The notes below the pieces were generated by a model. It saw only the letters and a program-made list of their open reading frames with translations, was not told the origin of the DNA and searched no databases. Shown here one piece after another: positions 7,634 to 60,113 of a stretch of 64,000 nucleotides of DNA. A program made the translations under genes and the position numbers. How positions within the stretch are numbered: the first letter of the stretch is position 1; every line of letters begins with the position of its first letter. This stretch comes from an uncultured Gammaproteobacteria bacterium (lineage in GTDB: Bacteria > Patescibacteriota > Patescibacteriia > SG8-24). The DNA lies in assembly GCA_964626205.1 (NCBI GenBank), contig CAZVED010000001.1, forward strand, positions 961 through 64,960, in the 5' to 3' direction.

Positions 7634-7655
7634 ATATCTAAGCGAGCTTATCTTT

Positions 7656-13585: not shown

Positions 13586-13687
13586 ACAGTCGATGTTTTT
13601 CGCTTATTTCAGCGATGAAACGGTATCTAGGGAACATCGGACTATAGCATAAAAACCACCCTTTGTCAAGGGTGGCGGGGAAACGAT

Positions 13688-13762
13688 TTAAGCTGGACAC
13701 GGGTACCGAAATAGGGCGGAAATGAAGAATGGGCGGGAGGAAATAGGCTGGATGCGGGTACA
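13688..13762 (+). repeat. family-A REP/BIME-like element (copy 2, left flank of RAYT)
   Basis: TTAAGCTGGACACGGGTACC-gaaatagggcggaaatgaagaatgggcgggaggaaata-GGCTGGATGCGGGTAC. Confidence 0.8.
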
Positions 13763-14370: not shown

Positions 14371-14452
14371 ATAGGCTGGATGCGGGTACCAGCCTATTTC
14401 CTCCCGCCTATTCTTCATTTCCGCCCTATTTCGGTACCCGTGTCCAGCTTAA
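14371..14452 (-). repeat. family-A REP/BIME-like element (copy 3, right flank of RAYT)
   Basis: GGCTGGATGCGGGTACCAGCC-tatttcctcccgcctattcttcatttccgccctatttc-GGTACCCGTGTCCAGCTTAA; contains the stop codon of the convergent gene 14449..16521. Confidence 0.8.
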
Positions 14453-16521: not shown

Positions 16522-16550
16522 ATATATGCCGATAGTGTAGCAGAGTGCAT

Positions 16551-16632
16551 TTAAGCTGGTACCCGCATCCAGCCTATTTCCTCCCGCCTATTCTTCATTT
16601 CCGCCTTATTCCGGTACCCGTGTCCAGCTTAA
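16551..16632 (+). repeat. family-A REP/BIME-like element (copy 4)
   Basis: TTAAGCTGGTACCCGCATCCAGCC-tatttcctcccgcctattcttcatttccgccttattcc-GGTACCCGTGTCCAGCTTAA between two minus-strand genes. Confidence 0.8.
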
Positions 16633-16636
16633 ACCG

Positions 16637-18670: not shown

Positions 18671-18716
18671 TGCGAGGGTCGACGTACTCGTCGGCCCGAA
18701 GCAATCCCGTTGTGGC
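18662..18716 (+). repeat. family-B palindromic arm (single arm)
   Basis: GTCATTGCGAGGGTCGACGTACTCGTCGGCCCGAAGCAATCCCGTTGTGG overlapping the 5' end of gene 16637..18670. Confidence 0.65.
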
Positions 18717-19030: not shown

Positions 19031-19200
19031 TGTCATTGCGAGGCCTGAAAGGCCGAAGCAACCCCGTTGAATCAGGAGAAGTATATCACGTTAAACTGAA
19101 TGCTTCATACCACGAAGATCCTTATTTGTCAAGAATAGTGTAGACAAATATCTTGAAATTGGACGGGATTGCTTCGGGCCTAAAGGCCCTCGCAATGACA
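19031..19200. repeat. family-B composite element: two inverted arms flanking a 95-bp AT-rich core
   Basis: TGTCATTGCGAGGCCTGAAAGGCCGAAGCAACCCC (19031-19065) ... GGGATTGCTTCGGGCCTAAAGGCCCTCGCAATGACA (19163-19198); core much lower in GC than its surroundings. Confidence 0.7.
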
Positions 19201-21096: not shown

Positions 21097-21191
21097 TGTC
21101 ATTGCGAGCGGGCCGTACCCGGCCCCGAAGCAATCCCGAACATGAACGGGATTGCCGCGGGCCGACGAGTACGTCGACCCTCGCAATGACA
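21097..21191. repeat. family-B palindromic element (two inverted arms, 9-bp core)
   Basis: TGTCATTGCGAGCGGGCCGTACCCGGCCCCGAAGCAATCCCG-aacatgaac-GGGATTGCCGCGGGCC...CCCTCGCAATGACA, immediately after the stop at 21096. Confidence 0.7.
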
Positions 21192-21285
21192 AAGTAGGGA
21201 AGCCGTCGCCACGCCCACAGTGCCACAGAGTAGGAAAGGTTCCTTCACAATCGAGTCCAGCCCCCACACCGTTTCCCGAGTGATG

Positions 21286-21323
21286 TGTCATTGCGAGGCC
21301 CGAAGGGCCGAAGCAATCCCGTC
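21286..21323 (+). repeat. family-B palindromic arm (single arm)
   Basis: TGTCATTGCGAGGCCCGAAGGGCCGAAGCAATCCCGTC. Confidence 0.6.
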
Positions 21324-21531: not shown

Positions 21532-24500
21532 ATGACAGACGTAATGAAAATGAGCCGGAAGGCCTTTTCGATCGGTGTCGTCGCTCTGACGGTTGCCTGG
21601 TCGATCGGTCTCTCCGCCCTCCTCGCTCCGCTCGCTTCGAGCGCTGCAGTGTCGGGTTCGCTCATCAAGGCTTCCATGCCGGCCGTGTACTACATGGGCT
21701 CGGATGGCAAGCGCTATGTGTTCCCGAACGAAAAGACCTACTTCTCTTGGTACGCGGATTTCTCCGCTGTCCAGGTCATCACGGATTCGGAGCTCGCCTC
21801 CCTTCCGATCGGTGGCAACGTCACGTACCGCCCGGGTGTTCGCATGGTGAAGATCCAGACTGATCCGAAGGTGTACGCAGTTGACTCTCATGGTGTCCTT
21901 CGCTGGATCACCTCTGAGGCGGCAGCTGTCGCTCTCTACGGTTCCGCTTGGAACACCATGGTTCACGATGTCTCGGATGCGTTCTTCACCAACTACACGG
22001 TTGGCGCAGACGTCTCCGGTCCGTCGGACTTCAACCCGGGTGCCGCAACGGCAGCCGCAACATCCATCAACCAGGACAAGAACCTCTCAACGGGTTCTGC
22101 CGCTGGCCTCAGCGTCTCCAAGGCGTCTGACTCCCCGATGGGTGCCACCCTTCCGCTCGGCGCGATGGGTGTCAACTTCGTCAAGTTCAACGTCATGAAC
22201 GGCGGTTCTTCCGCTGCTATGCTCTCCTCGCTCACGGTCATGCGTTCCGGCCCTGGCTATGCCAGCGACTTCGACGCGGTGTACGTGTACCGCGGCTCCG
22301 AGCGTTTGACGACCGGCCGCTCGATCAACTCCTCGTCCAACGAGGCGACGTTCAGCGGTTTGAACCTCTCGATCCCGGCGGGCGGCTCCGTCTCCCTCTG
22401 GATCGCGGGTGACATCTCCACGTCCGCTTTCGCAGGCAACGTGAACGCGCTCTCCGTGAGCAGCGTCATGGTTGGCAGCAGCTCCGTGTCCGGCACGCCG
22501 GTCATGGGCTCTTCCTTCAGCCTCGCAGGTGCAACGGTCGGTGAAATTGACATCGAGCGCACTGGCGGCTCCACCCTTGCCAACATCAAGGCAGGTGGTC
22601 TCGCGCAGCGCGTCGCATCGTTCCGTCTCACGGCCGGCAATCAGGAGGACCTCGATGTCCACTCTGTCGCGCTCACCTTCGGTGGTAACCTGAACCGTGC
22701 TCACCTCTCCAACTTCGTGCTCAAGCAGAGTGGCTCCACGCTCGCGTCGATCCCGTCCATCTCGGACAAGGACCTCGTGACGTTCGCCTTCTCGAGCCCG
22801 ATGTTCATGGAGAAGGGCGCTCAGCGCACCTTCGATGTGTTCGCGGATGTGAACGCAGGCGCTCGCTCCGGCGATGAGGTTGCGTTCTATGTCGATGTCA
22901 ACGCGGATGTCCGCGCCATGGGCCGCACCTACGGCTTCGGTGTGATGACGACCATTGACGCCACGTTCGACGCGTCCACCGATCAGGTGGCAACGGTCGA
23001 AGCAGGCAAGCTCACCACCACCTTCAATGGCCCGGCCTCCAAGGACGTGCTCGCGAACGGCAAGGATGTCGAGCTCTTCAACTTCACGGTCGCGGCTCAG
23101 GCCAACCTGGAGTTCCGCGAGGTCACGCTCGCACTTGACACCAACGGTGGCGACCCTCTCAACACCGTAGTCAGCGACATCAAGATCGTTGACACGGCCA
23201 ATGGTGCTATCGTTGCTGGTCCGACGGATGGCGGCGCAAGCTGCGTCCTCACGGCCAACACGGGTACGTGCGCCTTCTCGGAGACTTGGAACCTCGCGAG
23301 CGGCCAGTCGCGCACCTTCAAGGTGACGGCTGACATCAACTCCGCTGCGAATGGTGATGAAATTCGCGTGACGCTCGGCTCCGGCCAGTTGTTCGCGAAC
23401 AGCAAGGTCCGCAACTTGGACAACAACACCTACCTCGGCGCGTCCGACATGGTTCCGTCCACGGTGCTTGGAGGTAACATCCACACGGTGACCGACTCCG
23501 GTCTCACGGTTGGTAACGCCTCGACACCGGTTGCTCAGACCTACATCAAGGGCTCCTCGGACATCGCGCTCGCAGGCTGGTCCTTCACGGCAGCTGACGC
23601 TGCCCCGGTTCGCTTGAACTCGATCACGGTAGACTGTACCGCTGACGATGACAGCACGGTGAACGAGAAGGACGAGCTGTGCAACAGCGTTGTGCAGACA
23701 GTGAGGCTCATGAACGGTGCGACCCAGGTCGGCGTCACTGCCAGCCCGGATTCGTCCGACAGCATCCGCTTCGACAACCTCAATCTCACCATCAATGGTG
23801 GACAGAGCATGACGCTTGTGCTCATGGGCACGCTCTCCAGCTCTGCTCCGACCACGACCTACCTCGGGTTCGAGATTGAAGATGTTGATGTCACTGATGC
23901 TGACGGTGGTACGGTAAGCGACTCTGGCGTTCCTACGGCCATGAGCGCACTTATGACCGTCGCCGCGCAGGGCTCCGTCACGCTCGTCAACGCCCCAGTT
24001 GATATTGAGTCTGAGCCGAGCCTCGTTATCGGTGGCTCGTCGAACGTCGTGCTCGGTAAGTACCGCATGACCGCTCAGGACGAAGAGCTTCGCCTGTCGA
24101 AGGTGCAGTTCAGCGTCGCTACCCCGGCTGGTATTTCAACGGTGTCGCTCCACGATGGCGCAACGCTCGTTGGCGGTCCGGTCAGTGTGGTTGGCGGCCT
24201 CGCCACCTTCTCTTCGGTGAACTTCGTTGTTCCGAAGGACACGTCCAAGACCCTCACGGTCAAGGCGAACCTCAACACCGTCTCGCCGACCACTTCCGGT
24301 CCGCAGCCGATGGACCCGGTGACCATCACGATGCTTGATGCCAACCTCGAGATCCGCGGAACGTCCGCTGGTTCGGGCACGACCATCGTCTCCGCTGGTA
24401 CGGGCGACCCACTGGCCGGCAACCTCGCGGCCTACGGTAAGTTCATCGTGAAGTCCAAGCCGACGGTTGAAGTCGTGAGCGGTGACAAGGTGCTGGTCAA

Positions 24501-24945
24501 CAGCGCTGCCGCGAACGTCCTCACCCTTACGGTCTCGGCCGACACGGCTGGTCCGGTGGCGTTCCAGACCCTCGAGTTCACGGTGAACGACGACACGAAC
24601 CTCGGTGTCCTCGCCTGCTCGGGCACTGAGTCCAGCGTCTTCACGGCCAGCAACAACCAGGTTGTTGTCGGTAACTGTGACCTCACTGGCTCGTCTCTCA
24701 CCATCGACTTCACCGACGAACAGGTGGTCAACGCAGGAACCGCGAAGTCCTACTACCTCATGCTCAACATCTCGGGCACGGCAGATGGCGACTCGGTCAG
24801 CGTTGTTCTCGAGAGCACTGGCTTCGGCTGGTCTGATTACTCGGCTGTCGGTCACGACACGACGGGTATGACGGGTGCTGACTGGTTCACGGATGGTGAC
24901 TACGTCAAGTACCTTCCGTCCACGGCTCGCACGCTCTCCCGCTAA
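21532..24945 (+). CDS. large secreted surface protein: conserved ~110-aa N-terminal domain (YYxGxDGKRYxFPN...DPKVYAV...LRWI) plus tandem Ig-like beta-sandwich repeats
   Basis: signal peptide; N-terminal domain shared with 25412, 26892 and 28316 genes; more than 900 aa of Thr/Ser/Gly/Val-rich repeats; good RBS (AAAAGGAAAATAAGATATG). Confidence 0.65.
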   Translation: MTDVMKMSRKAFSIGVVALTVAWSIGLSALLAPLASSAAVSGSLIKASMPAVYYMGSDGKRYVFPNEKTYFSWYADFSAVQVITDSELASLPIGGNVTYRPGVRMVKIQTDPKVYAVDSHGVLRWITSEAAAVALYGSAWNTMVHDVSDAFFTNYTVGADVSGPSDFNPGAATAAATSINQDKNLSTGSAAGLSVSKASDSPMGATLPLGAMGVNFVKFNVMNGGSSAAMLSSLTVMRSGPGYASDFDAVYVYRGSERLTTGRSINSSSNEATFSGLNLSIPAGGSVSLWIAGDISTSAFAGNVNALSVSSVMVGSSSVSGTPVMGSSFSLAGATVGEIDIERTGGSTLANIKAGGLAQRVASFRLTAGNQEDLDVHSVALTFGGNLNRAHLSNFVLKQSGSTLASIPSISDKDLVTFAFSSPMFMEKGAQRTFDVFADVNAGARSGDEVAFYVDVNADVRAMGRTYGFGVMTTIDATFDASTDQVATVEAGKLTTTFNGPASKDVLANGKDVELFNFTVAAQANLEFREVTLALDTNGGDPLNTVVSDIKIVDTANGAIVAGPTDGGASCVLTANTGTCAFSETWNLASGQSRTFKVTADINSAANGDEIRVTLGSGQLFANSKVRNLDNNTYLGASDMVPSTVLGGNIHTVTDSGLTVGNASTPVAQTYIKGSSDIALAGWSFTAADAAPVRLNSITVDCTADDDSTVNEKDELCNSVVQTVRLMNGATQVGVTASPDSSDSIRFDNLNLTINGGQSMTLVLMGTLSSSAPTTTYLGFEIEDVDVTDADGGTVSDSGVPTAMSALMTVAAQGSVTLVNAPVDIESEPSLVIGGSSNVVLGKYRMTAQDEELRLSKVQFSVATPAGISTVSLHDGATLVGGPVSVVGGLATFSSVNFVVPKDTSKTLTVKANLNTVSPTTSGPQPMDPVTITMLDANLEIRGTSAGSGTTIVSAGTGDPLAGNLAAYGKFIVKSKPTVEVVSGDKVLVNSAAANVLTLTVSADTAGPVAFQTLEFTVNDDTNLGVLACSGTESSVFTASNNQVVVGNCDLTGSSLTIDFTDEQVVNAGTAKSYYLMLNISGTADGDSVSVVLESTGFGWSDYSAVGHDTTGMTGADWFTDGDYVKYLPSTARTLSR

Positions 24946-25411: not shown

Positions 25412-26698
25412 GTGCGCTATGCTGTCTCTATCATGTTTTCTATGTGGAAAACCGACGCCTTTCTCGAGACGAGCCTTTCGGTGCTCCAAACGCTCAAGCA
25501 GCAGCTCATCGAGAAGCTGATCATCCTTGCTATCGTCGGTGTCGCCCTCTTCGCGACGCTGGCCTCGGCTGCCGCTGGCGCCCGTTTCGCGTCCGCGGCC
25601 TCTCCGGCGTACGCAGAAGACGCCTCGTTCATGGTTTTGGATAAGACCGTCACAGTCCTCGCTGGGTCCTCGGTCGCTTCGCTCGAAACGTTTGGCGACC
25701 GTTTTACGGTCACACTCGACGAAGGCGACGTGGTGTCATTCCGTATGCCGTCGAACGGCCATTTCGTCAGTCATGGCGCGGCAATCGACACCTGCGAATA
25801 CCGCGAAGGGTCCAACTACCTCACGCTTTCTGAGCCGGGAACGTACACGCTTTCCGTTGACGGACGCATCTGCAACAGCACATACGGCGACGCCGAGGTC
25901 GTCAGCGTTTCCCGTCCGCAGGCAGGTGCGACAGTCACGGCAGGGGAGGAGGTGCTTGTCGTTTGGAGCGCTGCTGGATCGGTCTTCGGTGCGCGTCTCT
26001 CGTTGTCGTTGGACGGCGGCCTGACGTATCCGACGGTCCTTGTCGCCAACACGTTCAGCGCCGACGTGTTCGTATGGACGGTTCCACAGGTGCTCTCGAC
26101 GGACATGGCACGTATCCGTGTCGAAGCGCTCGGCTCGAGCACGGCCGTCGTCGCGGTCGGTGTCAGCGCACCATTCTCCATCGACGGTATCGCACCGCCA
26201 CCGGAACCGGAGCCGCAGCCGGCAACCTGGTACGACGCCGAAGAAGCCACACGCGCCGCGCTTACCATCGGCCATGACCGCGGTATCGTTCCTGGGCAGC
26301 TTCCGTCCGGAACCGTCACCTGCGCTGCGAATGCCCGCATCAAAGGCACGTCATCGAGCGCGGTGTATTACTGCGGCGCGGACGGCAAGCGGTACGCGTT
26401 CCCGAACCAGCGCGTCCATGACTCGTGGTACCTCGGCTTCGAAGGCGTCATCACGCTCACAGATGCAGAGCTTGCCGCTGCCCCGCTTGGTGGAACGGTC
26501 ACGTATCGCCCGGGTGTGCGTTTGGTGAAGATCACGACCGACCCCAAGGTCTACGCCGTTGCCGCGAACGGGGAACTGCGCTGGGTCACGTCGGAAGCGG
26601 TCGCTGTCGCGCTCTATGGAGCAGACTGGGCGACGAAGGTCGACGACATCCCTGACGCATTCTTCACGGACTACCGCATCGGCATACCGATCGAATAG
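25412..26698 (+). CDS. secreted/membrane-anchored protein with the conserved ~110-aa surface-family domain at its C-terminus
   Basis: N-terminal hydrophobic segment LIILAIVGVALFATLASAAAGA; C-terminal YYCGADGKRYAFPNQRVHDSWYLGF...DPKVYAVAANGELRWVTSEAVAVALYG paralogous to the N-terminal domains of 21532, 26892 and 28316 genes. Confidence 0.55.
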   Translation: MRYAVSIMFSMWKTDAFLETSLSVLQTLKQQLIEKLIILAIVGVALFATLASAAAGARFASAASPAYAEDASFMVLDKTVTVLAGSSVASLETFGDRFTVTLDEGDVVSFRMPSNGHFVSHGAAIDTCEYREGSNYLTLSEPGTYTLSVDGRICNSTYGDAEVVSVSRPQAGATVTAGEEVLVVWSAAGSVFGARLSLSLDGGLTYPTVLVANTFSADVFVWTVPQVLSTDMARIRVEALGSSTAVVAVGVSAPFSIDGIAPPPEPEPQPATWYDAEEATRAALTIGHDRGIVPGQLPSGTVTCAANARIKGTSSSAVYYCGADGKRYAFPNQRVHDSWYLGFEGVITLTDAELAAAPLGGTVTYRPGVRLVKITTDPKVYAVAANGELRWVTSEAVAVALYGADWATKVDDIPDAFFTDYRIGIPIE

Positions 26699-26730: not shown

Positions 26731-26752
26731 GGGAGCGACACACCAGGCGGGT

Positions 26753-26832
26753 TTAAGCTGGTACCCGTGTCCAGCCTATTTCCTCCCGCTTATTTCTCGT
26801 TTCCGCCTTATTTCGGTACCCGCATCCAGCTT
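26753..26832 (+). repeat. family-A REP/BIME-like element (copy 5)
   Basis: TTAAGCTGGTACCCGTGTCCAGCC-tatttcctcccgcttatttctcgtttccgccttatttc-GGTACCCGCATCCAGCTTT. Confidence 0.8.
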
Positions 26833-26891
26833 TAGTGGTTGCCATACTGAGCGTTTTTCGGCATGCTGGAGGTCATATAACCCCACGTCGT

Positions 26892-28136
26892 ATGCACGCG
26901 TTTCGTTTTGTCTCGACAACCGCCATCGCCCCGTTCCTTGCCGCAGTCGCGCTCGTCGTCGCTCCGTCGGTACATGCGTTTCCGGTCCTTGTCGAGCAGA
27001 CGCTCGCGCAACAGCCGTCAGAGACGCATCTTTTTGCTGGTATCTCGATCGGCGACCTCGTGAAGCTGCCCGACGACAACGACCCGACGACGACGCAGGA
27101 TTCCGTCGTGTACTACTTCGATCGTGACTGGAAGCGTCGGCCGTTCCCGAACCGGCACGTGTTCGATTCATGGTACGCGGACTTCTCGTCCGTGCGAGAG
27201 GTCACGCCGGAGCAAATGGCAGGGATGCGCCTCGGTCCACCCATCCTGTACCGCCCGGGAACACGCCTCGTGAAGATTCCGTCCATTCCGAAGGTGTACG
27301 CCGTGGAACCCGGCGGTGTGCTGCGCTGGATCACGACAGAGGACGTTGCCATCGCGCTGTATGGCACAGAGTGGTCGAAGCGCGTGGATGACCTTCCGGA
27401 AGCGTTCTTTACCGCGTACACGGAAGGTCCGGCACTGTACGCCGATGCATATCCGACGAGAACGCTTTTGCGTCTCGGCGGCGGCGCCTCGTTCTATGTG
27501 GTGGACGGCGGGACCATTCGGTTCGTCGCACCGCAGGACATGGCGCGATTCCGTTTCCAGACGCGCCACGCCGTTGACACGACCGCGTTGCCGGAAGGGT
27601 ATCCGCTCCTCGGCACGCTCACGGAAAACGGCGAGAACCTGACAGATACGTCGCAGCTGTCGCGTTCCGAAACGCTGCCGGCGGCACAGATCGATTTTCC
27701 GGTCCGTTCGACATCTGTCGAGGCCGGAGCTAATCGCACACTCGCATCGTTCCGTTTGACCGTCGGTGCTACGGTGACGCTTCGCAGGATGGACGTCACG
27801 CTTGCCGGTGCATGGAGCGATGCGACGCCGCTTGTGCGCGGCGTGAGGCTTGTCGACCGCGCGACAGGGGAGACGCTGTTCGGGACGCGCGAATTAGAGT
27901 CGGTCGGTGCTGAGCGTGAGACGGTTCCGTTCACGGGCGCGTTCGGCATTCCGGACGACATGGTCGTGGAAGTCGATCTGCGCGCGGATATCGCCGACGG
28001 ATACGATGGTCGCACGCTGACCGTGCTCTTTGAGCAATCGTCCGCAGAGGTCGTCGATGGGTTGAACGTCGATCGGAAGATGCCGCTTTTGCCGATGCGA
28101 GCGTATCCGGCGCTTACGGTGACGATTGGGGAGTAG
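26892..28136 (+). CDS. secreted protein with N-terminal conserved surface-family domain and C-terminal beta-rich region
   Basis: signal peptide MHAFRFVSTTAIAPFLAAVALVVAPSVHA; VVYYFDRDWKRRPFPNRHVFDSWYADFSSV...PKVYAVEPGGVLRWITTEDVAIALYG; start at ATG 26892, preferred over the ORF-track start 26835. Confidence 0.55.
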   Translation: MHAFRFVSTTAIAPFLAAVALVVAPSVHAFPVLVEQTLAQQPSETHLFAGISIGDLVKLPDDNDPTTTQDSVVYYFDRDWKRRPFPNRHVFDSWYADFSSVREVTPEQMAGMRLGPPILYRPGTRLVKIPSIPKVYAVEPGGVLRWITTEDVAIALYGTEWSKRVDDLPEAFFTAYTEGPALYADAYPTRTLLRLGGGASFYVVDGGTIRFVAPQDMARFRFQTRHAVDTTALPEGYPLLGTLTENGENLTDTSQLSRSETLPAAQIDFPVRSTSVEAGANRTLASFRLTVGATVTLRRMDVTLAGAWSDATPLVRGVRLVDRATGETLFGTRELESVGAERETVPFTGAFGIPDDMVVEVDLRADIADGYDGRTLTVLFEQSSAEVVDGLNVDRKMPLLPMRAYPALTVTIGE

Positions 28137-28188
28137 GCGAGCAATCACGCACGCGAATCAAAACATCGAATCTTCAGGCGTTTTCGTT

Positions 28189-28270
28189 TTAAGCTGGTAC
28201 CCGTGTCCAGCCTATTTCCTCCCGCCCATTTCTCGCTTCCGCCTTATTTCGGTACCCGCATCCAGCTTAA
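28189..28270 (+). repeat. family-A REP/BIME-like element (copy 6)
   Basis: TTAAGCTGGTACCCGTGTCCAGCC-tatttcctcccgcccatttctcgcttccgccttatttc-GGTACCCGCATCCAGCTTAA. Confidence 0.8.
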
Positions 28271-28315
28271 AACCGTGGTATACTGCATGAACGATTCAGT
28301 GTTTTTGTCGTACCC

Positions 28316-31192
28316 ATGCCTATGCCCTCACGCGGCGTTATCGGCCTTGCTACGGTCTTCCTATGGGCCTTTTTCGCGCTTCCTGCCGTTGCTGCGCCGG
28401 TGCCGGGCGACCTCGTGAAGCTATCGGGTGACACCGCCGTCTATTACGTCGGCACGGACGGCAAACGGTACGTCTTTCCGAACGCGGCCACGTATGCCAC
28501 ATGGTATGCGGATTTCTCCGCCGTGAAGACCGTGAGCGCTTCGGAACTTGCAGCGCTACCCATCGGCGGGACGATTGCGTACCGCGCGGGGACGCGCATG
28601 GTGAAGATCGTGAGCGACCCGACGGTGTACATCGTGGAACCTGGCGGCGCGTTGCGTCCGGTACCATCCGAGTCTGTGGCGCGGTCGTTATATGGTGCGA
28701 ACTGGGCGCGACGCGTGGATGATCTTTCGGATGCGTTCTTTTTCGCGTACGAGGTCCGTGAACCGTTCGAGTCCGGCACTTTTCCGAGCGGTACTATCGC
28801 GCGCCGTTCGTCGGACGGCGTGTTGTTTTTCATCGACGGATTGCAGAAGCGGCGTATTACGTCGGACACGGCGCGTACGACCTTGCGCGTGCAAGACGCT
28901 TTCGTGCTGACGGTCTCCGCGACGTCCCTTGAGAAATACGTCGACGGTCCGAACATCACCGGTATCGAGCCGTCATACATCGACACGGCGCAGCGAACGG
29001 CTCGGCCGGATGCACCGGTGTCGCTTCGTCTCGTGCCACCTGTTGGCAACGCGATTCCGTTCCCGGGCGATGCCACGCTCGCCACGCTCCGTATTTCCTC
29101 CGGGCGCGCGGTAACGGTTCGCCGCCTCACCGTGCGACTTACCGCGCTGAAGAATGATCCGTTGAGCCGCGGTATCGCTGACATCGACGACGATGCTGGC
29201 GGCATCGTCTACGGCGACGCGGAGAGCCTGAATCTTTCGGAGCTCCGTTTCGCCTACGCCGACGGTCGCGATGCTACGACGCGTCGGTCGCCGGTGCTCG
29301 ACACGACGCTCGACCAGGCACAGGAGTTCACGTTCACGGATGCGATCTTCGTGCCAGCCGGCGGGAGCGTCGCAGTGCGGCTCATGGCGCGCATGGGACG
29401 GCTCCTGCCGGTGGGGGAGACGTATACGGTTACTATTGTTGCCGCGCAGACGGAGTTTGCGGATGTCGAAAGTGGCGTCAGCGTTCCGGTATTGCCTACA
29501 ACCGATCTCGTGACGCCGACGCTCACCACGGTGCGCGGTGGGCTTGAGGTAACGGCAGCTCCGGTTCCCGGAGGCACGACCGTGGTTCGCGGGGCGTCGC
29601 AAGCGTCGATTGCCGCGTTCGCGCTTCGGGCACCTGCGGGGTCCGATGCCGTGCTGACGCGTCTTACTGTCGTGGGGTACATCAACGAAGGCGAGGGCGG
29701 GAATCGCGACTTCCGTGCCGGTGAGGATACCGACAATACGACGCCGACGACGGTCAATCAGATGGTCCGCGAAGTGTCGCTGTATGACGGTGCAGGAACG
29801 CGTCTTGCTGGGCCTGTGCCAGTGGCGTTCAACGGACGCGCTGAGTTTTCCGGACTCGCATTTCGTGTTGCAGCCGGTCAGTCGGGAACGGTCGTCGTGC
29901 GCGGGGACATGGATGGCAGTGTCGATTTTGAAGAGCGCCCGAACGGCCTTACATTCGATGTCGCAGACGCGGAAACAGATGCGGCGGCCGTCGATGCCGA
30001 GGGTGCCGCGCTACCGGTCATCGGTAAGCTTCCGAACGGTGGCGAACGCCCACGGTATTCCGTCACTGTGTACGAGCAAGGCCGCCTCACGTTCTCTTGG
30101 GAGGGGGAGGAAGACGGTGTCGTGCTCGTCGGTACGGACGCTGATCTTGGCGAACTGACTGTCGCGGCTGAGTACGATTCCTTCCGCCTCACGTCAATGA
30201 GTTTCCGTCTGCAGGATGGCCTCGCAGCACCGCTTCCTTCCGCGCGTCTGACATATACGACGTCTTCCGGCCAGAGCGCGGAAGCTGTGGCCGCGTTCAC
30301 GGGGTCGGTCGTGTGGTTCACTGGTTTGGATATCGTCGTGATACCTGGGTCACCACGCACGTTCCGTCTCTTCGCGTCGGTACCGCTTCCGGGCGGGGGA
30401 ATCGTGACCGGCGATCGTTTGTCGGTGCTGTTCGAACCGGCGGGACCGATGGCGTTCTCGTCCATCACGACCGGCGATACGTTCGGCCCGACGGACGCGC
30501 CGAGCGGAATCTTCCGTGTCGGGACGAACGAGGTAAGCGATGTCGTCGTTCGTTTCACGACGCTCACGCTTCGTGTCGGCTCCGGGTCCCCGAGCGGTAT
30601 CATTCCGCGCTCGGATGCCGCGGAGGTCTTGCGGTTTACGGCGACGGCGGGGCCAACCGGAAACGCGCGCATTTTACAGATGGCCTTCCTCTTGCGTCCG
30701 GGAGACGCCGGCTACGTCTATGAGTTTGGTTATGAGGAGCAGTATGAAGCTGAAGATAACGATGCGCTCGAGCGGTGGGCTGCAAAGAGCGACGGATTCC
30801 TCGATGATGACGACATCGCGAACCTGTACATGTGGGAGGGGGTGAATCCTACGTTGATAGGGGAAGGGCGCGACGGCCGGACGATATTCACTATCGGTGG
30901 AGATACCGATCTTTCCGCGTATACCGTTTCGCGCCCGAACCAGACCGCGACACTCACGTACGAGTTTCCGCTCTCGCAAGCGCTCGTCATTCCGGCAGGA
31001 GCGACACGGACGTTCTCATTCGAGGTGGACACGACCGGATTTGCGAACTGGAACGAATGGCCATTCGGCGTCGAGCTTTTGGGTGCAGAAGCGTTCGTTT
31101 GGACGGATGTCGCGGATGGCGCACCGTCGTTGCTCGATGGTCGCGACGCGCCAGCGCTGCCGCTTCGTCGATCGGTCCGTGTCGCGCGTTGA
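28316..31192 (+). CDS. large secreted surface protein (958 aa) with N-terminal conserved surface-family domain and long beta-rich repeat region
   Basis: signal peptide MPMPSRGVIGLATVFLWAFFALPAVAAP; AVYYVGTDGKRYVFPNAATYATWYADFSAVKTV...DPTVYIVEPGGALRPVPSESVARSLYG. Confidence 0.65.
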   Translation: MPMPSRGVIGLATVFLWAFFALPAVAAPVPGDLVKLSGDTAVYYVGTDGKRYVFPNAATYATWYADFSAVKTVSASELAALPIGGTIAYRAGTRMVKIVSDPTVYIVEPGGALRPVPSESVARSLYGANWARRVDDLSDAFFFAYEVREPFESGTFPSGTIARRSSDGVLFFIDGLQKRRITSDTARTTLRVQDAFVLTVSATSLEKYVDGPNITGIEPSYIDTAQRTARPDAPVSLRLVPPVGNAIPFPGDATLATLRISSGRAVTVRRLTVRLTALKNDPLSRGIADIDDDAGGIVYGDAESLNLSELRFAYADGRDATTRRSPVLDTTLDQAQEFTFTDAIFVPAGGSVAVRLMARMGRLLPVGETYTVTIVAAQTEFADVESGVSVPVLPTTDLVTPTLTTVRGGLEVTAAPVPGGTTVVRGASQASIAAFALRAPAGSDAVLTRLTVVGYINEGEGGNRDFRAGEDTDNTTPTTVNQMVREVSLYDGAGTRLAGPVPVAFNGRAEFSGLAFRVAAGQSGTVVVRGDMDGSVDFEERPNGLTFDVADAETDAAAVDAEGAALPVIGKLPNGGERPRYSVTVYEQGRLTFSWEGEEDGVVLVGTDADLGELTVAAEYDSFRLTSMSFRLQDGLAAPLPSARLTYTTSSGQSAEAVAAFTGSVVWFTGLDIVVIPGSPRTFRLFASVPLPGGGIVTGDRLSVLFEPAGPMAFSSITTGDTFGPTDAPSGIFRVGTNEVSDVVVRFTTLTLRVGSGSPSGIIPRSDAAEVLRFTATAGPTGNARILQMAFLLRPGDAGYVYEFGYEEQYEAEDNDALERWAAKSDGFLDDDDIANLYMWEGVNPTLIGEGRDGRTIFTIGGDTDLSAYTVSRPNQTATLTYEFPLSQALVIPAGATRTFSFEVDTTGFANWNEWPFGVELLGAEAFVWTDVADGAPSLLDGRDAPALPLRRSVRVAR

Positions 31193-35094: not shown

Positions 35095-35348
35095 AACATC
35101 CTTTTTTCCAACAGGGCGTCCAAAAGTAGGTAGACGATGGGTTTGGGTTATGAGCGGCACGGGCTTGCGGAGGTAGGTGGCGGGCACGACGGGTACACTT
35201 TTTTGCGAGACTGTGGCTCGCAAAAAAGTGGTACCCCGAGATGCCCGCCATCCCGACCTTCGAATGACCCGTTCCGTTTATCTCGAGCCCATTGTATACT
35301 TAGCGCCATCAGCTTCTTTAAGGCTGCATTTTCTGCCCGAGCACCCCT

Positions 35349-40856: not shown

Positions 40857-41111
40857 ATGAACACGAGAATCGCGATGGGCTTTTCCCTGCTATTCGTTTT
40901 CATCCCGATCGTTATCGGGGTATTCGCTTCGGCACCGGCCGTCCTCGTCATGGGAGTCGTCTATCTGCTTGCGGGAGCACTTCCCGTCCTTCCGGTCGGC
41001 AGGAACGTCGGCGGGGACCCACTCGCCGCGGAGATCAATCCGCCGATCATCGCGCTCATCATTCTCGGCCTGCTTGGCACAGCTCGCTTCGTCCTGCACG
41101 TGCTTCCGTGA
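40857..41111 (+). CDS. small (84 aa) membrane protein
   Basis: three hydrophobic helices; followed by a strong terminator. Confidence 0.4.
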   Translation: MNTRIAMGFSLLFVFIPIVIGVFASAPAVLVMGVVYLLAGALPVLPVGRNVGGDPLAAEINPPIIALIILGLLGTARFVLHVLP

Positions 41112-41142
41112 AAAAGCTACCGCCTTCCGGGCGGTATTTTTA
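41111..41142 (+). terminator. rho-independent terminator
   Basis: AAAAAGCTACCGCC-ttcc-GGGCGGTATTTTTAAAA. Confidence 0.6.
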
Positions 41143-41208: not shown

Positions 41209-41313
41209 AAGTCTTGGCAAAGCACGGGTGACGCCGGGAGAGGTCTCCACAAGCCGCGCGCTTCAGCGCGCGGAGCAGTGGAGAAACCCGGCGGCAGGAC
41301 CCGTGCCGTCATG
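41209..41313 (+). repeat. family-C conserved ~105-nt structured hairpin element (candidate small RNA or second REP-like family), copy 1
   Basis: AAGTCTTGGCAAAGCACGGGTGACGCCGGGAGAGGTCTCCACAAGCCGCGCGCTTCAGCGCGCGGAGCAGTGGAGAAACCCGGCGGCAGGACCCGTGCCGTCATG folds into a long imperfect hairpin; about 92% identical to the copy at 58709-58813 (minus strand), with compensatory differences. Confidence 0.6.
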
Positions 41314-41351: not shown

Positions 41352-43505
41352 TCAGCGTTCATACCGGAAGATCCATACGCGATCCTCCACGACCCACGAC
41401 TCCGCCGCGTCACGTCGCGCGCCGACGAGGATGTTCTGCGCGCCGTGCCAGTAGTGGTTCACTACGAAGAACGCCTGGTCTACGCCGGCGAGGTCCATCG
41501 CCGCGAGTGCTTCATCGGCACAGCCTGCACAGTCGTTCATAGCGAGGAAGCGCGCATAGAGCGGTCCGCCGGTTGGGACGGGGTAGAAGAAGATGTCACC
41601 GCGTTCACCGAAGTACGTGCGGAACCCGGATTCCTTGATTGCCGCGGCGGACACCGATTGGTTCGCGAGGACGACGTACGGTTTTCCTTTTGCCGCTTCT
41701 TCGATGCGCTGGACGGCTGTGACGTCGTGCGCGCTCGTAGACCATCCACGGCTGCTTTCGTACGTGTCGCGGCGTGGGTAGGCGAGGTAGAAGGACGCGG
41801 TCACAAGGATCGCGATGAGCGCCGCTGTGCCGACACGGAGACTCGGCATGCCGTTCCGTGCGCGTCGGAGCATTTCGCCGAACGCGACGACGGCGGTTGG
41901 GGCGAGGAGGAACACCGTCAGGTCGAGAAGGCGATCGGCGTAGTTGGATTGTTCGTAGTCGATGAGGAATGGGAAGTCGATGAACGACTTGAGGAGCACG
42001 TAGTTGCCGAGGAAGACGATGGCACCGACGGCGTAGGCATCCGCTGCTTCGCGGCGTTTGCGGAGGAGGACGATGCCAGCGAGGCCTGCAAGGAGCAGGA
42101 GCGGTATGCGCCAGGTCCGCCAAGCGTAGACGAGGTCGAGTCCGGCGCGGAACTGCCGCGTGGCGATGTCTGGCGCGGCGTTGAGCTCACGGACGATGGC
42201 AGCAGGACTCTTGAGCGTGTCCGTGTCGAGGTGGACGGATGCGCCTGAGAGCGCGGCGTTCAGCATGAAGACTGCAGGTAGCGCGAGGGAGCCGAGGATG
42301 GCGACGGCGACGAGTGCACGACGACGTGCGGTCACGGCAAGGCGACCGTAGCCTTCGATAGCGACGACGATAATGACAACGCCGACGAAGAGGAGCGCGG
42401 GGATGCCGGCGAGCGGATGCACGAGCGCGGTCGCGATGCCTAAGAGGACGAGCAGCGGCTTCGGGAACGCTGATGGCAGATGCACGGCCACGAGCGCGAG
42501 GAACGCAGTCATGAGTAGGAGCGCGTTCGCGACTCCTTGCGGCGTGGTCGCCACGAACGATGAGAGCGGGAGGAGGAACAGGCCGGCGCTTGCAGCTGCG
42601 GCTAACGGAGCATCCCACCGAAACGCGCGGCGAAGGCTCCAGAATGCAATCGGAACGGCGAGCGCGGCAAGAGCATGGACGAGGGAGAGGTCGATGGCGC
42701 CGACTGCGGAACCGGTGAGCCGTGCCAGCACGACGACAATCGCGTACTGACCGACGTAGTAGAACGGTTTTGGTGAAATCATTCCGTCGCGGAAGATGGC
42801 TTCTTCCGTGGCGCGGTGAATGAACGGGTCGAAGCCGTAGCCGATCGCGTAGACGAGCGTTGCGACGGAGGTCAATGTGGCCATGAGGAGCATCATGGGG
42901 AGTACGGCGGTGCGTCCTATGACACCGGATGCGGAAAGCATGAAGATGCCGCCTGCCGTGAGGAAGACGAGCGGAAAGACTGCGGAAGGGACTGCGTCCC
43001 ATGGTGTACGGATAGCCGCGTCTGTGGCGGATCCTGCGACGAGCGTTATCACGTACCAGAGGACGGCGACATAGGCCATGAGAAGCACGCTCGCAATGAT
43101 GCGCGCAGGCAGGGGTGGTGTTGATGGAGTACTGTCGGCGTCATCAGTATTCGCGTTGAAGATGCCGTTACTGCTCGCCTGACGTCGTGGGATGGCCGTG
43201 ACAATGAGCGGAGTACTAATGACAACGAACATGGTCGCCATCGTTCCGAGGTTTGCCGCATAGTACATTGCGCTTCCGGCAATCATGAGGATGCAGAGGA
43301 AGAGCGTGCCGCCGAGCGTGATGCGCCAGATACCACGTTCGGCAGGGAGGAGGCGTTCGCCGCAGAGCCAGGATCCGAGGATGAGGTAGATTGCTCCAAG
43401 GAAGGGTTTGAGCGGCACGGTGGCGGGAAGCAGAAGCGCGAGTGCGCCACATGCTGTCAGGATAAGCGGGAAAAGGGTATACTTTTTCAGTGAAATGCTT
43501 CCCAT
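41352..43505 (-). CDS. large polytopic membrane protein with C-terminal extracytoplasmic domain (GT-C/YfhO/PMT-like candidate)
   Basis: about 14 TM helices then a ~200-aa soluble C-terminal domain; start set at MGSISLKK (43505); the first ~288 aa of the ORF-track ORF to 44369 are antisense read-through of 43531..44124. Confidence 0.5.
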   Translation of the reverse strand: MGSISLKKYTLFPLILTACGALALLLPATVPLKPFLGAIYLILGSWLCGERLLPAERGIWRITLGGTLFLCILMIAGSAMYYAANLGTMATMFVVISTPLIVTAIPRRQASSNGIFNANTDDADSTPSTPPLPARIIASVLLMAYVAVLWYVITLVAGSATDAAIRTPWDAVPSAVFPLVFLTAGGIFMLSASGVIGRTAVLPMMLLMATLTSVATLVYAIGYGFDPFIHRATEEAIFRDGMISPKPFYYVGQYAIVVVLARLTGSAVGAIDLSLVHALAALAVPIAFWSLRRAFRWDAPLAAAASAGLFLLPLSSFVATTPQGVANALLLMTAFLALVAVHLPSAFPKPLLVLLGIATALVHPLAGIPALLFVGVVIIVVAIEGYGRLAVTARRRALVAVAILGSLALPAVFMLNAALSGASVHLDTDTLKSPAAIVRELNAAPDIATRQFRAGLDLVYAWRTWRIPLLLLAGLAGIVLLRKRREAADAYAVGAIVFLGNYVLLKSFIDFPFLIDYEQSNYADRLLDLTVFLLAPTAVVAFGEMLRRARNGMPSLRVGTAALIAILVTASFYLAYPRRDTYESSRGWSTSAHDVTAVQRIEEAAKGKPYVVLANQSVSAAAIKESGFRTYFGERGDIFFYPVPTGGPLYARFLAMNDCAGCADEALAAMDLAGVDQAFFVVNHYWHGAQNILVGARRDAAESWVVEDRVWIFRYER

Positions 43506-43530
43506 AGAGTTCTCGTAGTGTACCACAGTC

Positions 43531-58279: not shown

Positions 58280-58615
58280 TTACGCCTTCTTCGCGATCTT
58301 CTTTGCCTTCTTCACTTCAGCGGCGGCTGGAGCTTCGGCTTCCGGGACGACGGACACGAAGTTGGCGTCTTCCAATTTGCCGTGGAATTTGCGGACCTTG
58401 CGCTTGGCGAAGTGCACGATGCCCGGCATCGTCGCGAACAAGGTGTCATCGCCTCCACGCTCGACATTCTTTCCGGCGCGGAATTTGGAGCCACGCTGGC
58501 GGATAAGAATGGCGCCCTGCTTGGCGTACTGACCCTCATACAGCTTCACGCCGAGGCGCTTGGCGATGGAATCGCGTCCTAATTGTGTTGAGCCGCCGGC
58601 TTTTTTACTTGCCAT
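58280..58615 (-). CDS. rpmA: 50S ribosomal protein L27 with a Lys/Ala-rich C-terminal extension
   Basis: [61 protein letters not shown] matches the L27 core; extra ~25-aa tail [20 protein letters not shown]. Confidence 0.9.
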
Positions 58616-58708
58616 AGGGTCTGGTGGATAAGAGGATTTCGGATAGGGGCAGTATAAGGGAAGGGCTGGGGGCCGTCAAGAGGTGGTAGGCAGGGCAGGA
58701 TTGAGCCT

Positions 58709-58813
58709 ATGACGGCACGGGTCCTGCCGCTGGGTTTCTCCACTTCACCGTGCGCCAGAGGCGCACGGCTTGTGGAGGCCTCTCCCAGCGTCACCCGTGC
58801 TTTGCCAAGACTT
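58709..58813 (-). repeat. family-C conserved ~105-nt structured hairpin element, copy 2 (in the rpmA upstream region)
   Basis: minus-strand sequence AAGTCTTGGCAAAGCACGGGTGACGCTGGGAGAGGCCTCCACAAGCCGTGCGCCTCTGGCGCACGGTGAAGTGGAGAAACCCAGCGGCAGGACCCGTGCCGTCATA; pairs preserved by compensatory C:G to T:A changes relative to copy 1. Confidence 0.6.
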
Positions 58814-58928
58814 TGGCCTATCCCATCCTCCCACCCGTGCTCCATCCCGCTTACTGCCCCTGGGAGGTGGTCTAAGGGCAAGGTCGCCCCTAGACCACCA
58901 AGAATTGGCGTGATAGGCTCGGCACACT

Positions 58929-60113
58929 ATGGAGTCCGCTTCTCGCGCTTATCTGGATCATGCTGCCTCGACCCCGCTGTGCGCGGAGGCGGCTTCGGCG
59001 ATGGCTGCCGTTCCGACCGTCGGCAACCCATCGTCCGTTCATGCCGAGGGGCTGGCGCTTCGTCGGCTCGTTGATGACGCTCGCGCCAAGGTCGCGCGGC
59101 TCCTGGAGGTTCCTGCGGATCGGTGTGTCTTCACGTCTGGCGCCACCGAGGCGAACCTGCTCGGCGTCATGGGGTACATCCGTGCGGTCCGCGAGCTCAT
59201 CCCGGACGGTGTCTTGCATGCGGTCACGACGCCGATCGAGCACGCATCCATGAGTCAGGCGCTCGCATTGGCGGCAGAGGAATACGGCATCGTCGTCGAT
59301 ACGGTTCCGGTCGACGAGCGCGGCGTCGTTCGTGCGGAGGACATCCGTGCGGCCATGACGGACCGGACGATTCTCGTTTCCTGCATGTGGGCGAACAACG
59401 TCTTCGGTTCCGTGCAACCGATGAAAGCCATCGGTGATGTCGTGGCCTCGACACGTGCGGCACGGGAGGCGGCCGCGCTCCCGCTCGCGTTCATGACGGA
59501 TGCAGTGCAAGCGGTACGGACGTTGCCGGTGGCACCGCATGCGGTCGGCGCGGATATCCTGACGGCCTCGTCACATAAAATCTACGGTCCCAAGGGCGTC
59601 GGGCTTCTCATGGTTCGTGCAGGCACCCCATTCCGTCCGCTCGCGGCTGGTGGCGGGCAGGAGCGCGGCCTGCGTGGCGGAACGGAGAACGTCGCAGGCA
59701 TCGTCGGGTTCGGCGCTGCGGCGGAGGTACTACGCGAACGTCGGAAGGAGGATCGCGTACATGCGGAGTCGCTTCGAAGAGCATTTGTCGCCACGCTTCA
59801 AGATCGTCTTGGCGCCAAGGTCGCCGTGCTTGGCGATACGTCCGGCGAGGATGCGCTTCCCGACGTCGTGTTCCTGCAAGCATACGGTGCAGACGCGGAA
59901 ACGCTCATCGTGAAGCTCGATGTCGCGGGGTTCGCGGTCTCGGCAGGTTCGGCATGCGACTCCGGGAAACGCCGCTCCGCTTCCGCCGTGCGCGCGGCGT
60001 ACGGCGATCGTGTGGCCAGGGACGGCGGTATCCGTATCTCTTTCGGACGCGAGACGCGCGTCGAGGATCTTCTCCGATTCACCGACGCATTGGAGCGCGT
60101 CATTCGGAACTGA
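58929..60113 (+). CDS. cysteine desulfurase (class V PLP-dependent aminotransferase, NifS/IscS-like)
   Basis: AYLDHAASTPL, FTSGATEANL, PLP-lysine context SSHKIYGPKGVGLL, active-site Cys loop SAGSACDSG. Confidence 0.8.
   Translation: MESASRAYLDHAASTPLCAEAASAMAAVPTVGNPSSVHAEGLALRRLVDDARAKVARLLEVPADRCVFTSGATEANLLGVMGYIRAVRELIPDGVLHAVTTPIEHASMSQALALAAEEYGIVVDTVPVDERGVVRAEDIRAAMTDRTILVSCMWANNVFGSVQPMKAIGDVVASTRAAREAAALPLAFMTDAVQAVRTLPVAPHAVGADILTASSHKIYGPKGVGLLMVRAGTPFRPLAAGGGQERGLRGGTENVAGIVGFGAAAEVLRERRKEDRVHAESLRRAFVATLQDRLGAKVAVLGDTSGEDALPDVVFLQAYGADAETLIVKLDVAGFAVSAGSACDSGKRRSASAVRAAYGDRVARDGGIRISFGRETRVEDLLRFTDALERVIRN

What the first reader, a model, noticed from the sequence alone, without database searches (positions are those of the whole stretch)
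41209..41313. Duplicated ~105-nt structured hairpin element with compensatory base-pair changes (candidate small RNA or second REP-like family)
A 105-nt sequence at 41209-41313 (+) recurs at 58709-58813 (-) with only about 8 differences. It folds into a long imperfect hairpin. The outer stem is GCACGGGU/ACCCGUGC, the middle stem is CGCCGGG/CCCGGCG and the apical stem is CCGCGCGC-UUCA-GCGCGCGG. Two of the differences are double substitutions that keep pairing. GCCGGG/CCCGGC becomes GCTGGG/CCCAGC. In the apical stem CCGCGCGC/GCGCGCGG becomes CCGTGCGC/GCGCACGG, a C:G pair replaced by T:A. That pattern indicates selection on the structure, not just the sequence. Copy 2 lies in the rpmA upstream region on the rpmA strand, about 90 nt before its start. 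Copy 1 lies between the 3' ends of two convergent genes. The differing contexts argue against a simple leader. It does not match SRP, 6S, tmRNA or RNase P consensus by eye.
Basis: seen in the sequence. Interest (0 to 1): 0.7.

Follow-up and report, generated by a model that had tools for sequence, protein, structure and literature searches.

The report
Duplicated 105-nt palindromic intergenic repeat
A 105-base sequence that folds into a long hairpin occurs twice, in opposite orientations, in gene-free gaps of a Patescibacteria (CPR) genome; it looks like one more family of dispersed palindromic "junk-like" repeats (REPIN/MITE-like) rather than a small-RNA gene or a ribosomal-protein leader, so it is real but fairly ordinary.

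Summary
A 105-nt unit at 41209-41313 (+) recurs at 58709-58813 (-) with 9 substitutions and 1 indel. Both copies fold into the same long imperfect hairpin (RNA dG -63/-62 kcal/mol, z about -6). Three base pairs differ by changes on both sides that keep pairing.

No Rfam family matches. The repeat carries no promoter or terminator of its own, and its flanks are unrelated. Either strand folds about equally well, as RNA or as ssDNA. Copy 2 ends 29 nt upstream of the -35 of a conserved rpmA promoter, so it is not in the rpmA leader. Copy 1 lies between the stop codon of a minus-strand gene and a bidirectional terminator.

All differences fall in the central 57 nt. The 26-nt and 22-nt ends are identical, which is the pattern described for REPINs.

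The element is absent from nine syntenic loci of the nearest available relatives. One shows an "empty" stop-then-terminator site, and another has a different palindrome there. The window holds at least three other palindromic repeat families.

Best reading: a lineage-specific dispersed palindromic repeat, REPIN/MITE-like. Only two copies could be examined, and no transposase, target duplication or further copy was found, so mobility is inferred. Interest is low to moderate.

The parts
41209..41313 (+). Copy 1 of the 105-nt palindromic repeat. Identical left end 41209-41234, variable centre 41235-41290, identical right end 41291-41312.
   Evidence: 127 bits. It lies between the stop of the minus-strand 722-aa membrane-protein gene (41352) and the bidirectional terminator at 41118-41136.
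58709..58813 (-). Copy 2 of the repeat, in inverted orientation relative to copy 1.
   Evidence: 129 bits. Its 3' end (58709) is 29 nt upstream of the rpmA -35 hexamer and 93 nt upstream of the rpmA ATG (58615).
58828..58841 (-). Solo AGCACGGGTG-GGAG motif next to copy 2. It equals the element's left-arm sequence AGCACGGGTG[ACGCCG]GGAG with 6 nt missing, and may be a relic of a partial copy.
   Evidence: GCACGGGTG occurs 4 times in the window, three of them in or next to the element.
41118..41136 (.). Context: bidirectional intrinsic terminator shared by the convergent genes. Copy 1 sits between it and the minus-strand gene's stop codon.
58651..58679 (-). Context: rpmA promoter TTGACG-17-TATACT, downstream of copy 2.
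   Evidence: The same TTGACA-17-TATACT box is conserved at the same distance from the ATG in five relatives.

Best explanation
The element is a member of a lineage-specific family of dispersed, non-coding, imperfect-palindrome DNA repeats. It is comparable to REPINs, ERIC or Correia elements, and hairpin MITEs.

The unit is a roughly 85-nt four-helix hairpin plus short conserved single-stranded tails: a 5' AAGTCT tail in the RNA fold (AAGTCTTGGCAAA in the ssDNA fold) and a 3' CGTCAT tail in the ssDNA fold.

Inferred mechanism:
- Copies were placed into intergenic DNA by a trans-acting enzyme that recognises the conserved ends or the hairpin, probably in single-stranded DNA, or by ectopic recombination.
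- The hairpin has since been kept intact, either because only foldable copies propagate or persist, or because palindrome-templated repair copies one arm onto the other.
- Any RNA-level effect is secondary and depends on context. The reverse complement of copy 1 would form a stable 3'-UTR stem-loop on the mRNA of the 722-aa membrane protein, ahead of its terminator. Copy 2 sits in the untranscribed or divergent-promoter spacer upstream of the rpmA promoter.

Shown: the duplication, the fold, the compensated differences, the intergenic placement, and the absence from relatives' orthologous sites. Inferred: mobility, the enzyme, and any effect on RNA.
For: 1. Two copies, 17.4 kb apart and in opposite orientation, lie in functionally unrelated intergenic contexts. 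Similarity stops abruptly at both ends.
2. All 10 differences lie in the central 57 of 105 positions, and the 26-nt and 22-nt ends are identical. (57/105)^10 = 0.002, or 0.014 if counted as 7 independent events. Three of the differences are compensated pairs. This is the pattern described for REPINs: invariant ends, and a less conserved spacer that must form a hairpin, with common compensatory changes (PMC3116915).
3. The hairpin forms equally on either strand, as RNA or as ssDNA. That is expected for a DNA palindrome, not for a strand-specific RNA gene.
4. The unit has no promoter or terminator. Copy 2 is outside the rpmA transcript, because the conserved promoter is downstream of it.
5. It is absent from nine syntenic loci, about 117 kb in total, of the nearest available relatives. 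At the site orthologous to copy 1, L073 has the stop codon followed directly by a terminator, and L072 has a different palindromic element. Stop-to-terminator spacers therefore take up different palindromes in this lineage.
6. The same 64 kb holds at least three other intergenic palindromic or TIR repeat families, with 6, 8 and 1 copies.
7. No Rfam family matches at gathering or at permissive thresholds.
Against: - Only two copies could be examined. The rest of the source genome was not retrievable.
- Public-collection scans found no further copy. These were genome contigs with a 10+10-nt outer-stem pattern, metagenome contigs with an 18-mer, viral contigs, plasmids, phages, and a six-frame peptide search.
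- There is no consistent target-site duplication: ATG at copy 1 and (AT)AGGC at copy 2.
- Pfam scans of 57 ORF translations, which include all 54 candidate ORFs of at least 240 nt picked, found no transposase or RAYT.
- The arms are not themselves small REP palindromes.
- The relatives are distant (pyrG 81-84% aa identity; membrane protein 68-70%). Absence at orthologous sites therefore shows non-conservation, not a recent insertion.
Confidence: 0.55

Rival explanations
1. It is a structured non-coding RNA present as two paralogous genes, or a cis-acting RNA element such as an mRNA 3'-end stabiliser or processing site. Selection would act on the RNA fold.
For: - The fold is very stable and significantly better than shuffles.
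- Three compensated pairs differ between the copies.
- The annotated strand folds about 4 kcal/mol better than its complement, because of G-U pairs.
- The reverse complement of copy 1 lies in a probable 3' UTR, between the stop codon and the terminator.
Against: - No Rfam hit.
- No shared promoter or terminator, and the flanks are unrelated.
- The two copies would be transcribed, if at all, in opposite senses relative to their neighbours. Copy 1 would be read as the reverse complement, in a 3' UTR. Copy 2 is upstream of a promoter.
- The apical loop is not conserved (UUCA versus CUCUG).
- It is not present in any relative.
- One mismatch in copy 2 (C-A at 36/77) would be a G-U pair only on the opposite strand, so the strand signal is mixed.
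Confidence: 0.17
2. It is a one-off ectopic duplication of a hairpin-forming spacer, not a multi-copy family and not mobile. The compensated changes would come from quasipalindrome template-switch mutation rather than selection.
For: - Only two copies were observed, and no further copies turned up in any searched collection.
- Template switching is documented to create and maintain perfect hairpin stems through apparent compensatory substitutions (PMC8794818).
Against: - The unit has sharp boundaries and perfectly conserved 26-nt and 22-nt ends that include unpaired tails.
- There is a nearby solo left-arm motif.
- A related genome carries an end-to-start 'junction-like' 19-mer.
- The genome is demonstrably rich in other dispersed palindromic families.
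Confidence: 0.18
3. It is a DNA-level functional site, either a protein-binding palindrome or cruciform, or a pair of inverted recombination sites that allow inversion of the 17.4-kb segment between them.
For: - The copies are in inverted orientation (I11/I14).
- The conserved ends suggest sequence-specific recognition.
- The heptamer CACGGGT is shared with repeat family A.
Against: - No recombinase or cognate binding protein is encoded nearby (Pfam).
- The pyrG-rpmA-aminotransferase order across copy 2 is the same as in all relatives, so there is no sign of inversion.
Confidence: 0.05

Closest known systems
REPINs (REP doublets forming hairpins, mobilised by RAYT transposases; Bertels & Rainey 2011, PMC3116915)
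   Same: - A roughly 100-nt extragenic imperfect palindrome.
- Invariant left and right ends, with a less conserved centre that keeps hairpin potential through compensatory changes.
- An unpaired 5' tail.
- Found in either orientation.
- Often lies between a stop codon and a terminator.
   Different: - The arms are not themselves small REP palindromes.
- There is no GTAG tag.
- No RAYT gene was seen in 64 kb.
- Only 2 copies are known, against tens to hundreds.
- The host is a Patescibacteria (CPR) genome rather than a proteobacterium.
ERIC/IRU and Correia/NEMIS-type elements, and hairpin MITEs (from my own knowledge and the review PMC3184786)
   Same: - 100-150-nt imperfect palindromes dispersed in intergenic regions.
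- Found in both orientations.
- Co-transcribed with neighbouring genes, where they can act as RNA stem-loops.
- No coding capacity.
   Different: - There is no sequence similarity.
- There is no TA or other consistent target duplication.
- No parent IS with matching inverted repeats was found.
- It is GC-rich (about 66%) rather than AT-rich.
CGTC-tagged REPs (Di Nocera et al. 2013, PMC3733652)
   Same: The 3' tail contains CGTC (..GTGCCGTCAT). It is palindromic and extragenic, and no dedicated transposase is known for that superfamily either.
   Different: CGTC REPs are 20-40 bp with 8-9-bp stems that begin with A/T pairs, 4-5-nt loops and a CCA tail. None of this geometry is present here.

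Membership tests
REP / REPIN (RAYT-associated) | Conserved ends with a variable, hairpin-forming spacer that shows compensatory changes | tested here: met
   The 26-nt and 22-nt ends are identical. All 10 differences are central, and 3 are compensated pairs. The definition comes from PMC3116915.
REP / REPIN (RAYT-associated) | Built from two inverted REP units, each itself a short palindrome with a GTAG (or CGTC) tag | tested here: not met
   The arms have no self-complementarity beyond 4-5 bp. There is no GTAG. CGTC is present, but the stem and loop geometry of CGTC REPs is absent.
REP / REPIN (RAYT-associated) | High copy number in extragenic space | tested here: inconclusive
   There are 2 copies in 64 kb. 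The rest of the genome was not retrievable.
REP / REPIN (RAYT-associated) | Cognate RAYT (Y1 transposase) gene in the genome, flanked by the repeats | tested here: inconclusive
   No Y1_Tnp or any other transposase domain appears in the Pfam scans of 57 window ORF translations. RAYTs are single-copy, so one could lie elsewhere in the genome.
MITE | Terminal inverted repeats and no coding capacity | tested here: met
   The whole unit is an imperfect inverted repeat. It contains no plausible ORF.
MITE | Target-site duplication of fixed length | tested here: not met
   The flanks give ATG/ATG at copy 1 and (AT)AGGC/(AT)AGGC at copy 2. These differ in length and partly overlap the unit, so they are probably chance.
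MITE | Parent insertion sequence with the same ends, or a presence/absence polymorphism | tested here: inconclusive
   No IS was found in the window. The element is absent from orthologous sites in nine relative loci, but these relatives are distant.
Any Rfam RNA family (including SRP, 6S, tmRNA, RNase P, r-protein leaders) | Covariance-model score at or above the gathering threshold | tested here: not met
   There were 0 hits in the window at gathering thresholds. In E-value mode there were only sub-threshold partial hits to the apical GC hairpin.
Ribosomal-protein (rpmA) 5' leader | Lies within the transcript, between the promoter and the start codon, and is conserved in relatives | tested here: not met
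   The element ends 29 nt upstream of the -35 of the conserved TTGACR-17-TATACT promoter. It is absent upstream of rpmA in relatives.
Independent sRNA gene | Own promoter and terminator conserved with the unit | tested here: not met
   No sigma-70-like site upstream and no hairpin-plus-U-tract downstream of either copy. The flanks are unrelated. This is a weak test, because it relies on consensus scans only.
Intrinsic terminator | GC-rich hairpin followed directly by a U tract | tested here: not met
   The forward strand ends ..GUGCCGUCAU and the reverse strand ends ..GUGCUUUGCCAAG. Neither was reported by the terminator scan, and true terminators lie elsewhere.

The most novel reading that the evidence does not exclude
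The element belongs to an undescribed family of hairpin-shaped, non-autonomous mobile elements in Patescibacteria (CPR) that moves through a single-stranded or circular intermediate. The lead is a 19-mer in a related genome, CCGTGCCGTCA|AAGCACGG, which joins the element's right terminus to its left sub-terminus in junction order. The motif CACGGGT, shared with another repeat family in the window, would then be the recognition site of an unknown transposase in these tiny genomes. Alternatively, it is a CPR-specific structured RNA under selection for its fold.
Probability: 0.12. Interest if true: 0.5.

Novelty: new member of a known kind. Interest (0 to 1): 0.25.

Why it matters
If it is what it appears to be, it adds one more lineage-specific palindromic repeat family to a CPR/Patescibacteria genome. 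The interesting point is less this element than the context. A small, streamlined genome carries at least four different palindromic or TIR repeat families within 64 kb, and stop-to-terminator spacers hold different palindromes in related genomes. That bears on how such repeats persist in reduced genomes and on which enzyme moves them. Practically, it warns annotators not to call this hairpin an sRNA or an rpmA leader.

Tried and rejected
**Rfam.** Gathering thresholds on the whole window, and E-value mode on both copies. Nothing meaningful.

**Collection scans.**
- Genome contigs with the outer-stem pattern returned 52 loci, all chance hits in GC-rich genomes by blastn.
- Metagenome contigs with an 18-mer returned 12 loci, all chance hits.
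- Two viral-contig scans returned 0.
- Plasmid and phage blastn found nothing.
- The source contig itself was not returned by any of these scans, so they say nothing about copy number in the source genome.

**Six-frame peptide trick.** I concatenated translations of the element to catch spurious ORFs called over other copies in 5.8 billion proteins. No hit at E <= 10.

**Exact-protein look-ups to reach the rest of the source contig.** Not on record.

**Covariance model R1 from the two copies, filters off, on the window and seven relative loci.** Besides the two copies, it found only generic long hairpins at 26 bits or less, against 127-129 bits for the copies.

**Ideas considered and rejected.**
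- K-turn in the GA / GCAGGA internal loop: the second tandem pair would be G-G, so it is not canonical.
- SRP or 6S: the apical loop is not conserved and there was no model hit.
- Composite transposon bounded by the two inverted copies: pyrG-rpmA-aminotransferase synteny runs across copy 2 in all relatives.
- attC, dif, and an outward-facing promoter in the element ends (a TTGCCA -35-like hexamer with no usable -10): no support.

**Pfam scans of 57 window ORF translations for a transposase, RAYT or recombinase.** None found.

Full report

Yes. The sequence at 41209-41313 (+) recurs as its reverse complement at 58709-58813. BLASTN gives 90.5% identity over 105 nt, that is 9 substitutions and one 1-nt indel.

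Several searches find exactly these two copies in the 64 kb, where chance predicts none:
- 25-nt and 22-nt probes allowing three mismatches;
- nhmmer run with --max;
- a covariance model built from the two copies and run with filters off.

Each copy folds into one long imperfect hairpin:
- a basal UGGC/GUCA stem;
- GCACGGGU/ACCCGUGC;
- CGCCGGG/CCCGGCG;
- (U)CUCCAC/GUGGAG(A);
- an apical 8-10-bp GC stem.

RNA MFE is -63.4 and -62.3 kcal/mol, with z = -5.8 and -6.3 against dinucleotide shuffles.

There is a third at the loop-closing pair 54/58, U:A to C:G.

I simulated nine random substitutions on the element. At least two Watson-Crick-compensated pairs arise with P = 0.004, and at least three with P = 5.5e-5. 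With only two sequences, the standard column-shuffle control cannot be significant (52/500). The statistical case therefore rests on that simple model.

**2. Where does it come from?**

The window is 60.7% G+C. Its CTP synthase is closest to proteins labelled Patescibacteria, Parcubacteria or Uhrbacteria. The only 100% match is an unnamed NCBI protein on a 143-kb contig. The next best hits are 81-84% identical.

The source contig could not be retrieved. Only 64 kb of the genome could be examined.

**3. Anatomy and context**

*Copy 1.* It lies between convergent genes: an 84-aa membrane protein (40857-41111, +) and a 722-aa membrane protein without Pfam domains (41352-43520, -). A bidirectional intrinsic terminator sits at 41118-41136. 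The minus-strand transcript would therefore read through the reverse complement of copy 1 before terminating.

*Copy 2.* It is in the 313-nt spacer between rpmA (58280-58615, -) and a divergent class-V aminotransferase gene (58929-60113, +). A promoter TTGACG-17-TATACT lies at 58679-58651. The same TTGACA-17-TATACT box sits at the same distance from the rpmA ATG in five relatives. Copy 2 ends 29 nt upstream of the -35 hexamer, so it lies outside the rpmA transcript and is not a leader.

*The unit itself.*
- Neither copy has a sigma-70-like promoter upstream or a U-tract terminator downstream.
- Similarity stops sharply at both ends of the unit.
- The reverse strand folds almost as well: RNA -59.5 and -58.1 kcal/mol; ssDNA -37/-36 against -34/-33 kcal/mol.
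- All ten differences lie within columns 27-83. The first 26 nt and last 22 nt are identical, including the unpaired tails: 5' AAGTCT in the RNA fold, and 5' AAGTCTTGGCAAA and 3' CGTCAT in the ssDNA fold.
- (57/105)^10 = 0.002 for ten differences, or 0.014 if the three double changes are each counted as one event.
- A solo AGCACGGGTG-GGAG motif lies 14 nt beyond the 5' end of copy 2 (58828-58841, -). It matches the left arm with 6 nt missing.

**4. Comparison with relatives**

Seven loci syntenic for pyrG-rpmA-aminotransferase were fetched (L053, L066-L071). Two loci syntenic for the copy-1 neighbourhood were also fetched (L072 and L073; membrane protein 70% and 68% identical).

None of these nine loci, about 117 kb in total, contains the element by nhmmer or blastn, and the covariance model finds none in the seven pyrG loci.

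- Upstream of rpmA, all relatives with sequence there have an extra unannotated ORF of 132-262 aa, followed by its terminator and then the conserved promoter. The window lacks that ORF and has the element instead.
- At the site orthologous to copy 1, L073 has the stop codon followed immediately by a bidirectional terminator.
- At the same site, L072 has a different palindrome of about 75 nt, GGCGGGCATCTCGGGGT...ACCCGTCGTGCCCGCC.
- That second palindrome ("family D") also occurs in the window at 35172-35259, and at the orthologous TauE/epimerase spacer of L072. Its outer arms are conserved and its inner hairpin differs.

In this lineage, then, stop-to-terminator spacers hold different palindromic elements in different genomes.

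**5. The genome is rich in such repeats**

The window also contains:
- *Family A.* Six copies of about 85 nt with 10-nt terminal inverted repeats TTTAAGCTGG/CCAGCTTAAA.
- *Family B.* Eight copies of TGTCATTGCGAG-[GC stem-loop]-GAAGCAATCCC, often as inverted pairs that form hairpins longer than 100 nt.
- *Family D.* One copy, described above.

All lie in intergenic gaps.

The heptamer CACGGGT/ACCCGTG occurs 17 times in the window. Ten of these are in family A or in and beside the present element.

Pfam scans of 57 ORF translations, which include all 54 candidate ORFs of at least 240 nt picked, found no transposase, RAYT or recombinase. The region encodes glycan and cell-envelope enzymes, pilus assembly proteins and housekeeping genes.

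**6. Searches elsewhere**

- Rfam: no hit at gathering thresholds. In E-value mode there were only sub-threshold partial matches to the apical GC hairpin.
- Genome contigs, metagenome contigs and two viral contigs pattern scans gave only chance matches or nothing.
- Plasmid and phage collections: nothing.
- A concatenated six-frame translation of the element found no spurious ORFs over other copies among 5.8 billion proteins.
- The scans did not return the source contig itself, so they say nothing about copy number in the source genome.

**7. Interpretation**

The best-supported reading is a lineage-specific dispersed palindromic DNA repeat. Its most telling property is invariant ends with a variable centre that keeps hairpin potential through compensated changes. 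That matches the published description of REPINs (PMC3116915).

It does not pass the REPIN membership test:
- the arms are not small REP palindromes;
- there is no GTAG tag;
- the CGTC in the 3' tail does not come with the CGTC-REP geometry (PMC3733652);
- no RAYT was seen.

It also lacks a consistent target duplication, so it is not a textbook MITE.

I therefore file it as "works like a REPIN or hairpin MITE, membership unproven". Mobility and the enzyme are inferred, not shown.

The compensated changes show that complementarity was maintained. Template-switch mutation in quasipalindromes can do this without selection (PMC8794818).

The sRNA or cis-RNA rival keeps some probability, because the fold is strong and the annotated strand is about 4 kcal/mol more stable. 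It has no positive evidence: no promoter, terminator, homologue or conserved loop.

**8. An unexplained lead**

L072 carries CCGTGCCGTCAAAGCACGG at 14498-14516. This is the element's right terminus (11 of 11 nt) joined directly to its left sub-terminus, in end-to-start order. It is itself a 6-bp hairpin, it is flanked by a CCGT direct repeat, and it is absent from the same spot in the window.

Among about 180 kb of window plus relatives, the 11-mer is otherwise found only in the two copies. It could be a junction relic, or a REP-like singlet that shares a recognition motif.

**9. Verdict**

It is a new member of a known kind. Interest is about 0.25.

Noticed in passing
window 7550-7635, 13687-13761, 14370-14467, 16550-16647, 26752-26849, 28188-28285: Repeat family A. 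Six intergenic copies of an element of about 85 nt with 10-nt terminal inverted repeats TTTAAGCTGG/CCAGCTTAAA and two small GCTGG-[TACCCGYRT]-CCAGC hairpins. It looks MITE-like. It shares the heptamer CACGGGT/ACCCGTG with the finding's element.
   Followed up: partly
window 5923-6020, 18665-18711, 19031-19200, 21097-21297: Repeat family B. Eight copies of TGTCATTGCGAG-[variable GC stem-loop]-GAAGCAATCCC. They often occur as inverted pairs that form very stable hairpins longer than 100 nt (dG -58 to -67 kcal/mol). A variant, GTCATTCCGGGCTTGACCCGGAATCC, flanks the pyrG/rpmA terminator in relatives L067-L069, and L072 has a pair at 8397/8483.
   Followed up: partly
window 35172-35259; L072 7587-7655 and 14530-14600: Palindrome family D. 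The outer arms GGCGGGCATCTCGGGGT / ACCCGTCGTGCCCGCC are conserved between two genomes, while the inner hairpin differs. In the window the inner hairpin is a bidirectional terminator core. It is present at the orthologous TauE/epimerase spacer in both genomes, and additionally after the 716-aa gene in L072.
   Followed up: partly
L072 14498-14516: The 19-mer CCGTGCCGTCAAAGCACGG equals the right terminus of the finding's element joined to its left sub-terminus, in junction order. It is flanked by a CCGT direct repeat and is missing from the orthologous spot in the window.
   Followed up: partly
window 58864-58900: A perfect 15-bp hairpin, TGGTGGTCTAGGGGC-GACC-TTGCCCTTAGACCACC (dG -34.6 kcal/mol, z = -5.2), lies 28 nt upstream of the aminotransferase start codon, in the same spacer as copy 2. 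It has no U tract and does not repeat elsewhere in the window.
   Followed up: no
window 58616-58928 compared with L053 12147-12584, L066 5524-6003, L067 9087-9875, L069 3346-3744, L070 8207-8788: All relatives with sequence there have a poorly conserved ORF of 132-262 aa with no Pfam domain between rpmA and the aminotransferase gene. The window has lost it or never had it.
   Followed up: no
window 7758-9023: A 421-aa protein with collagen-like GXY triple-helix repeats (Pfam Collagen, E = 1.4e-14) followed by Cys-rich CGDxSCNNGE repeats. This gene is the source of the 9-nt periodic direct repeat D1.
   Followed up: no
window 21532-24945, 25412-26698, 26835-28136, 28316-31192: Four large paralogous ORFs without Pfam domains share 60-76% identical segments of 117-195 nt (repeats D2/D3) and are separated by family A repeats. 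This may be a variable surface-protein gene family.
   Followed up: no
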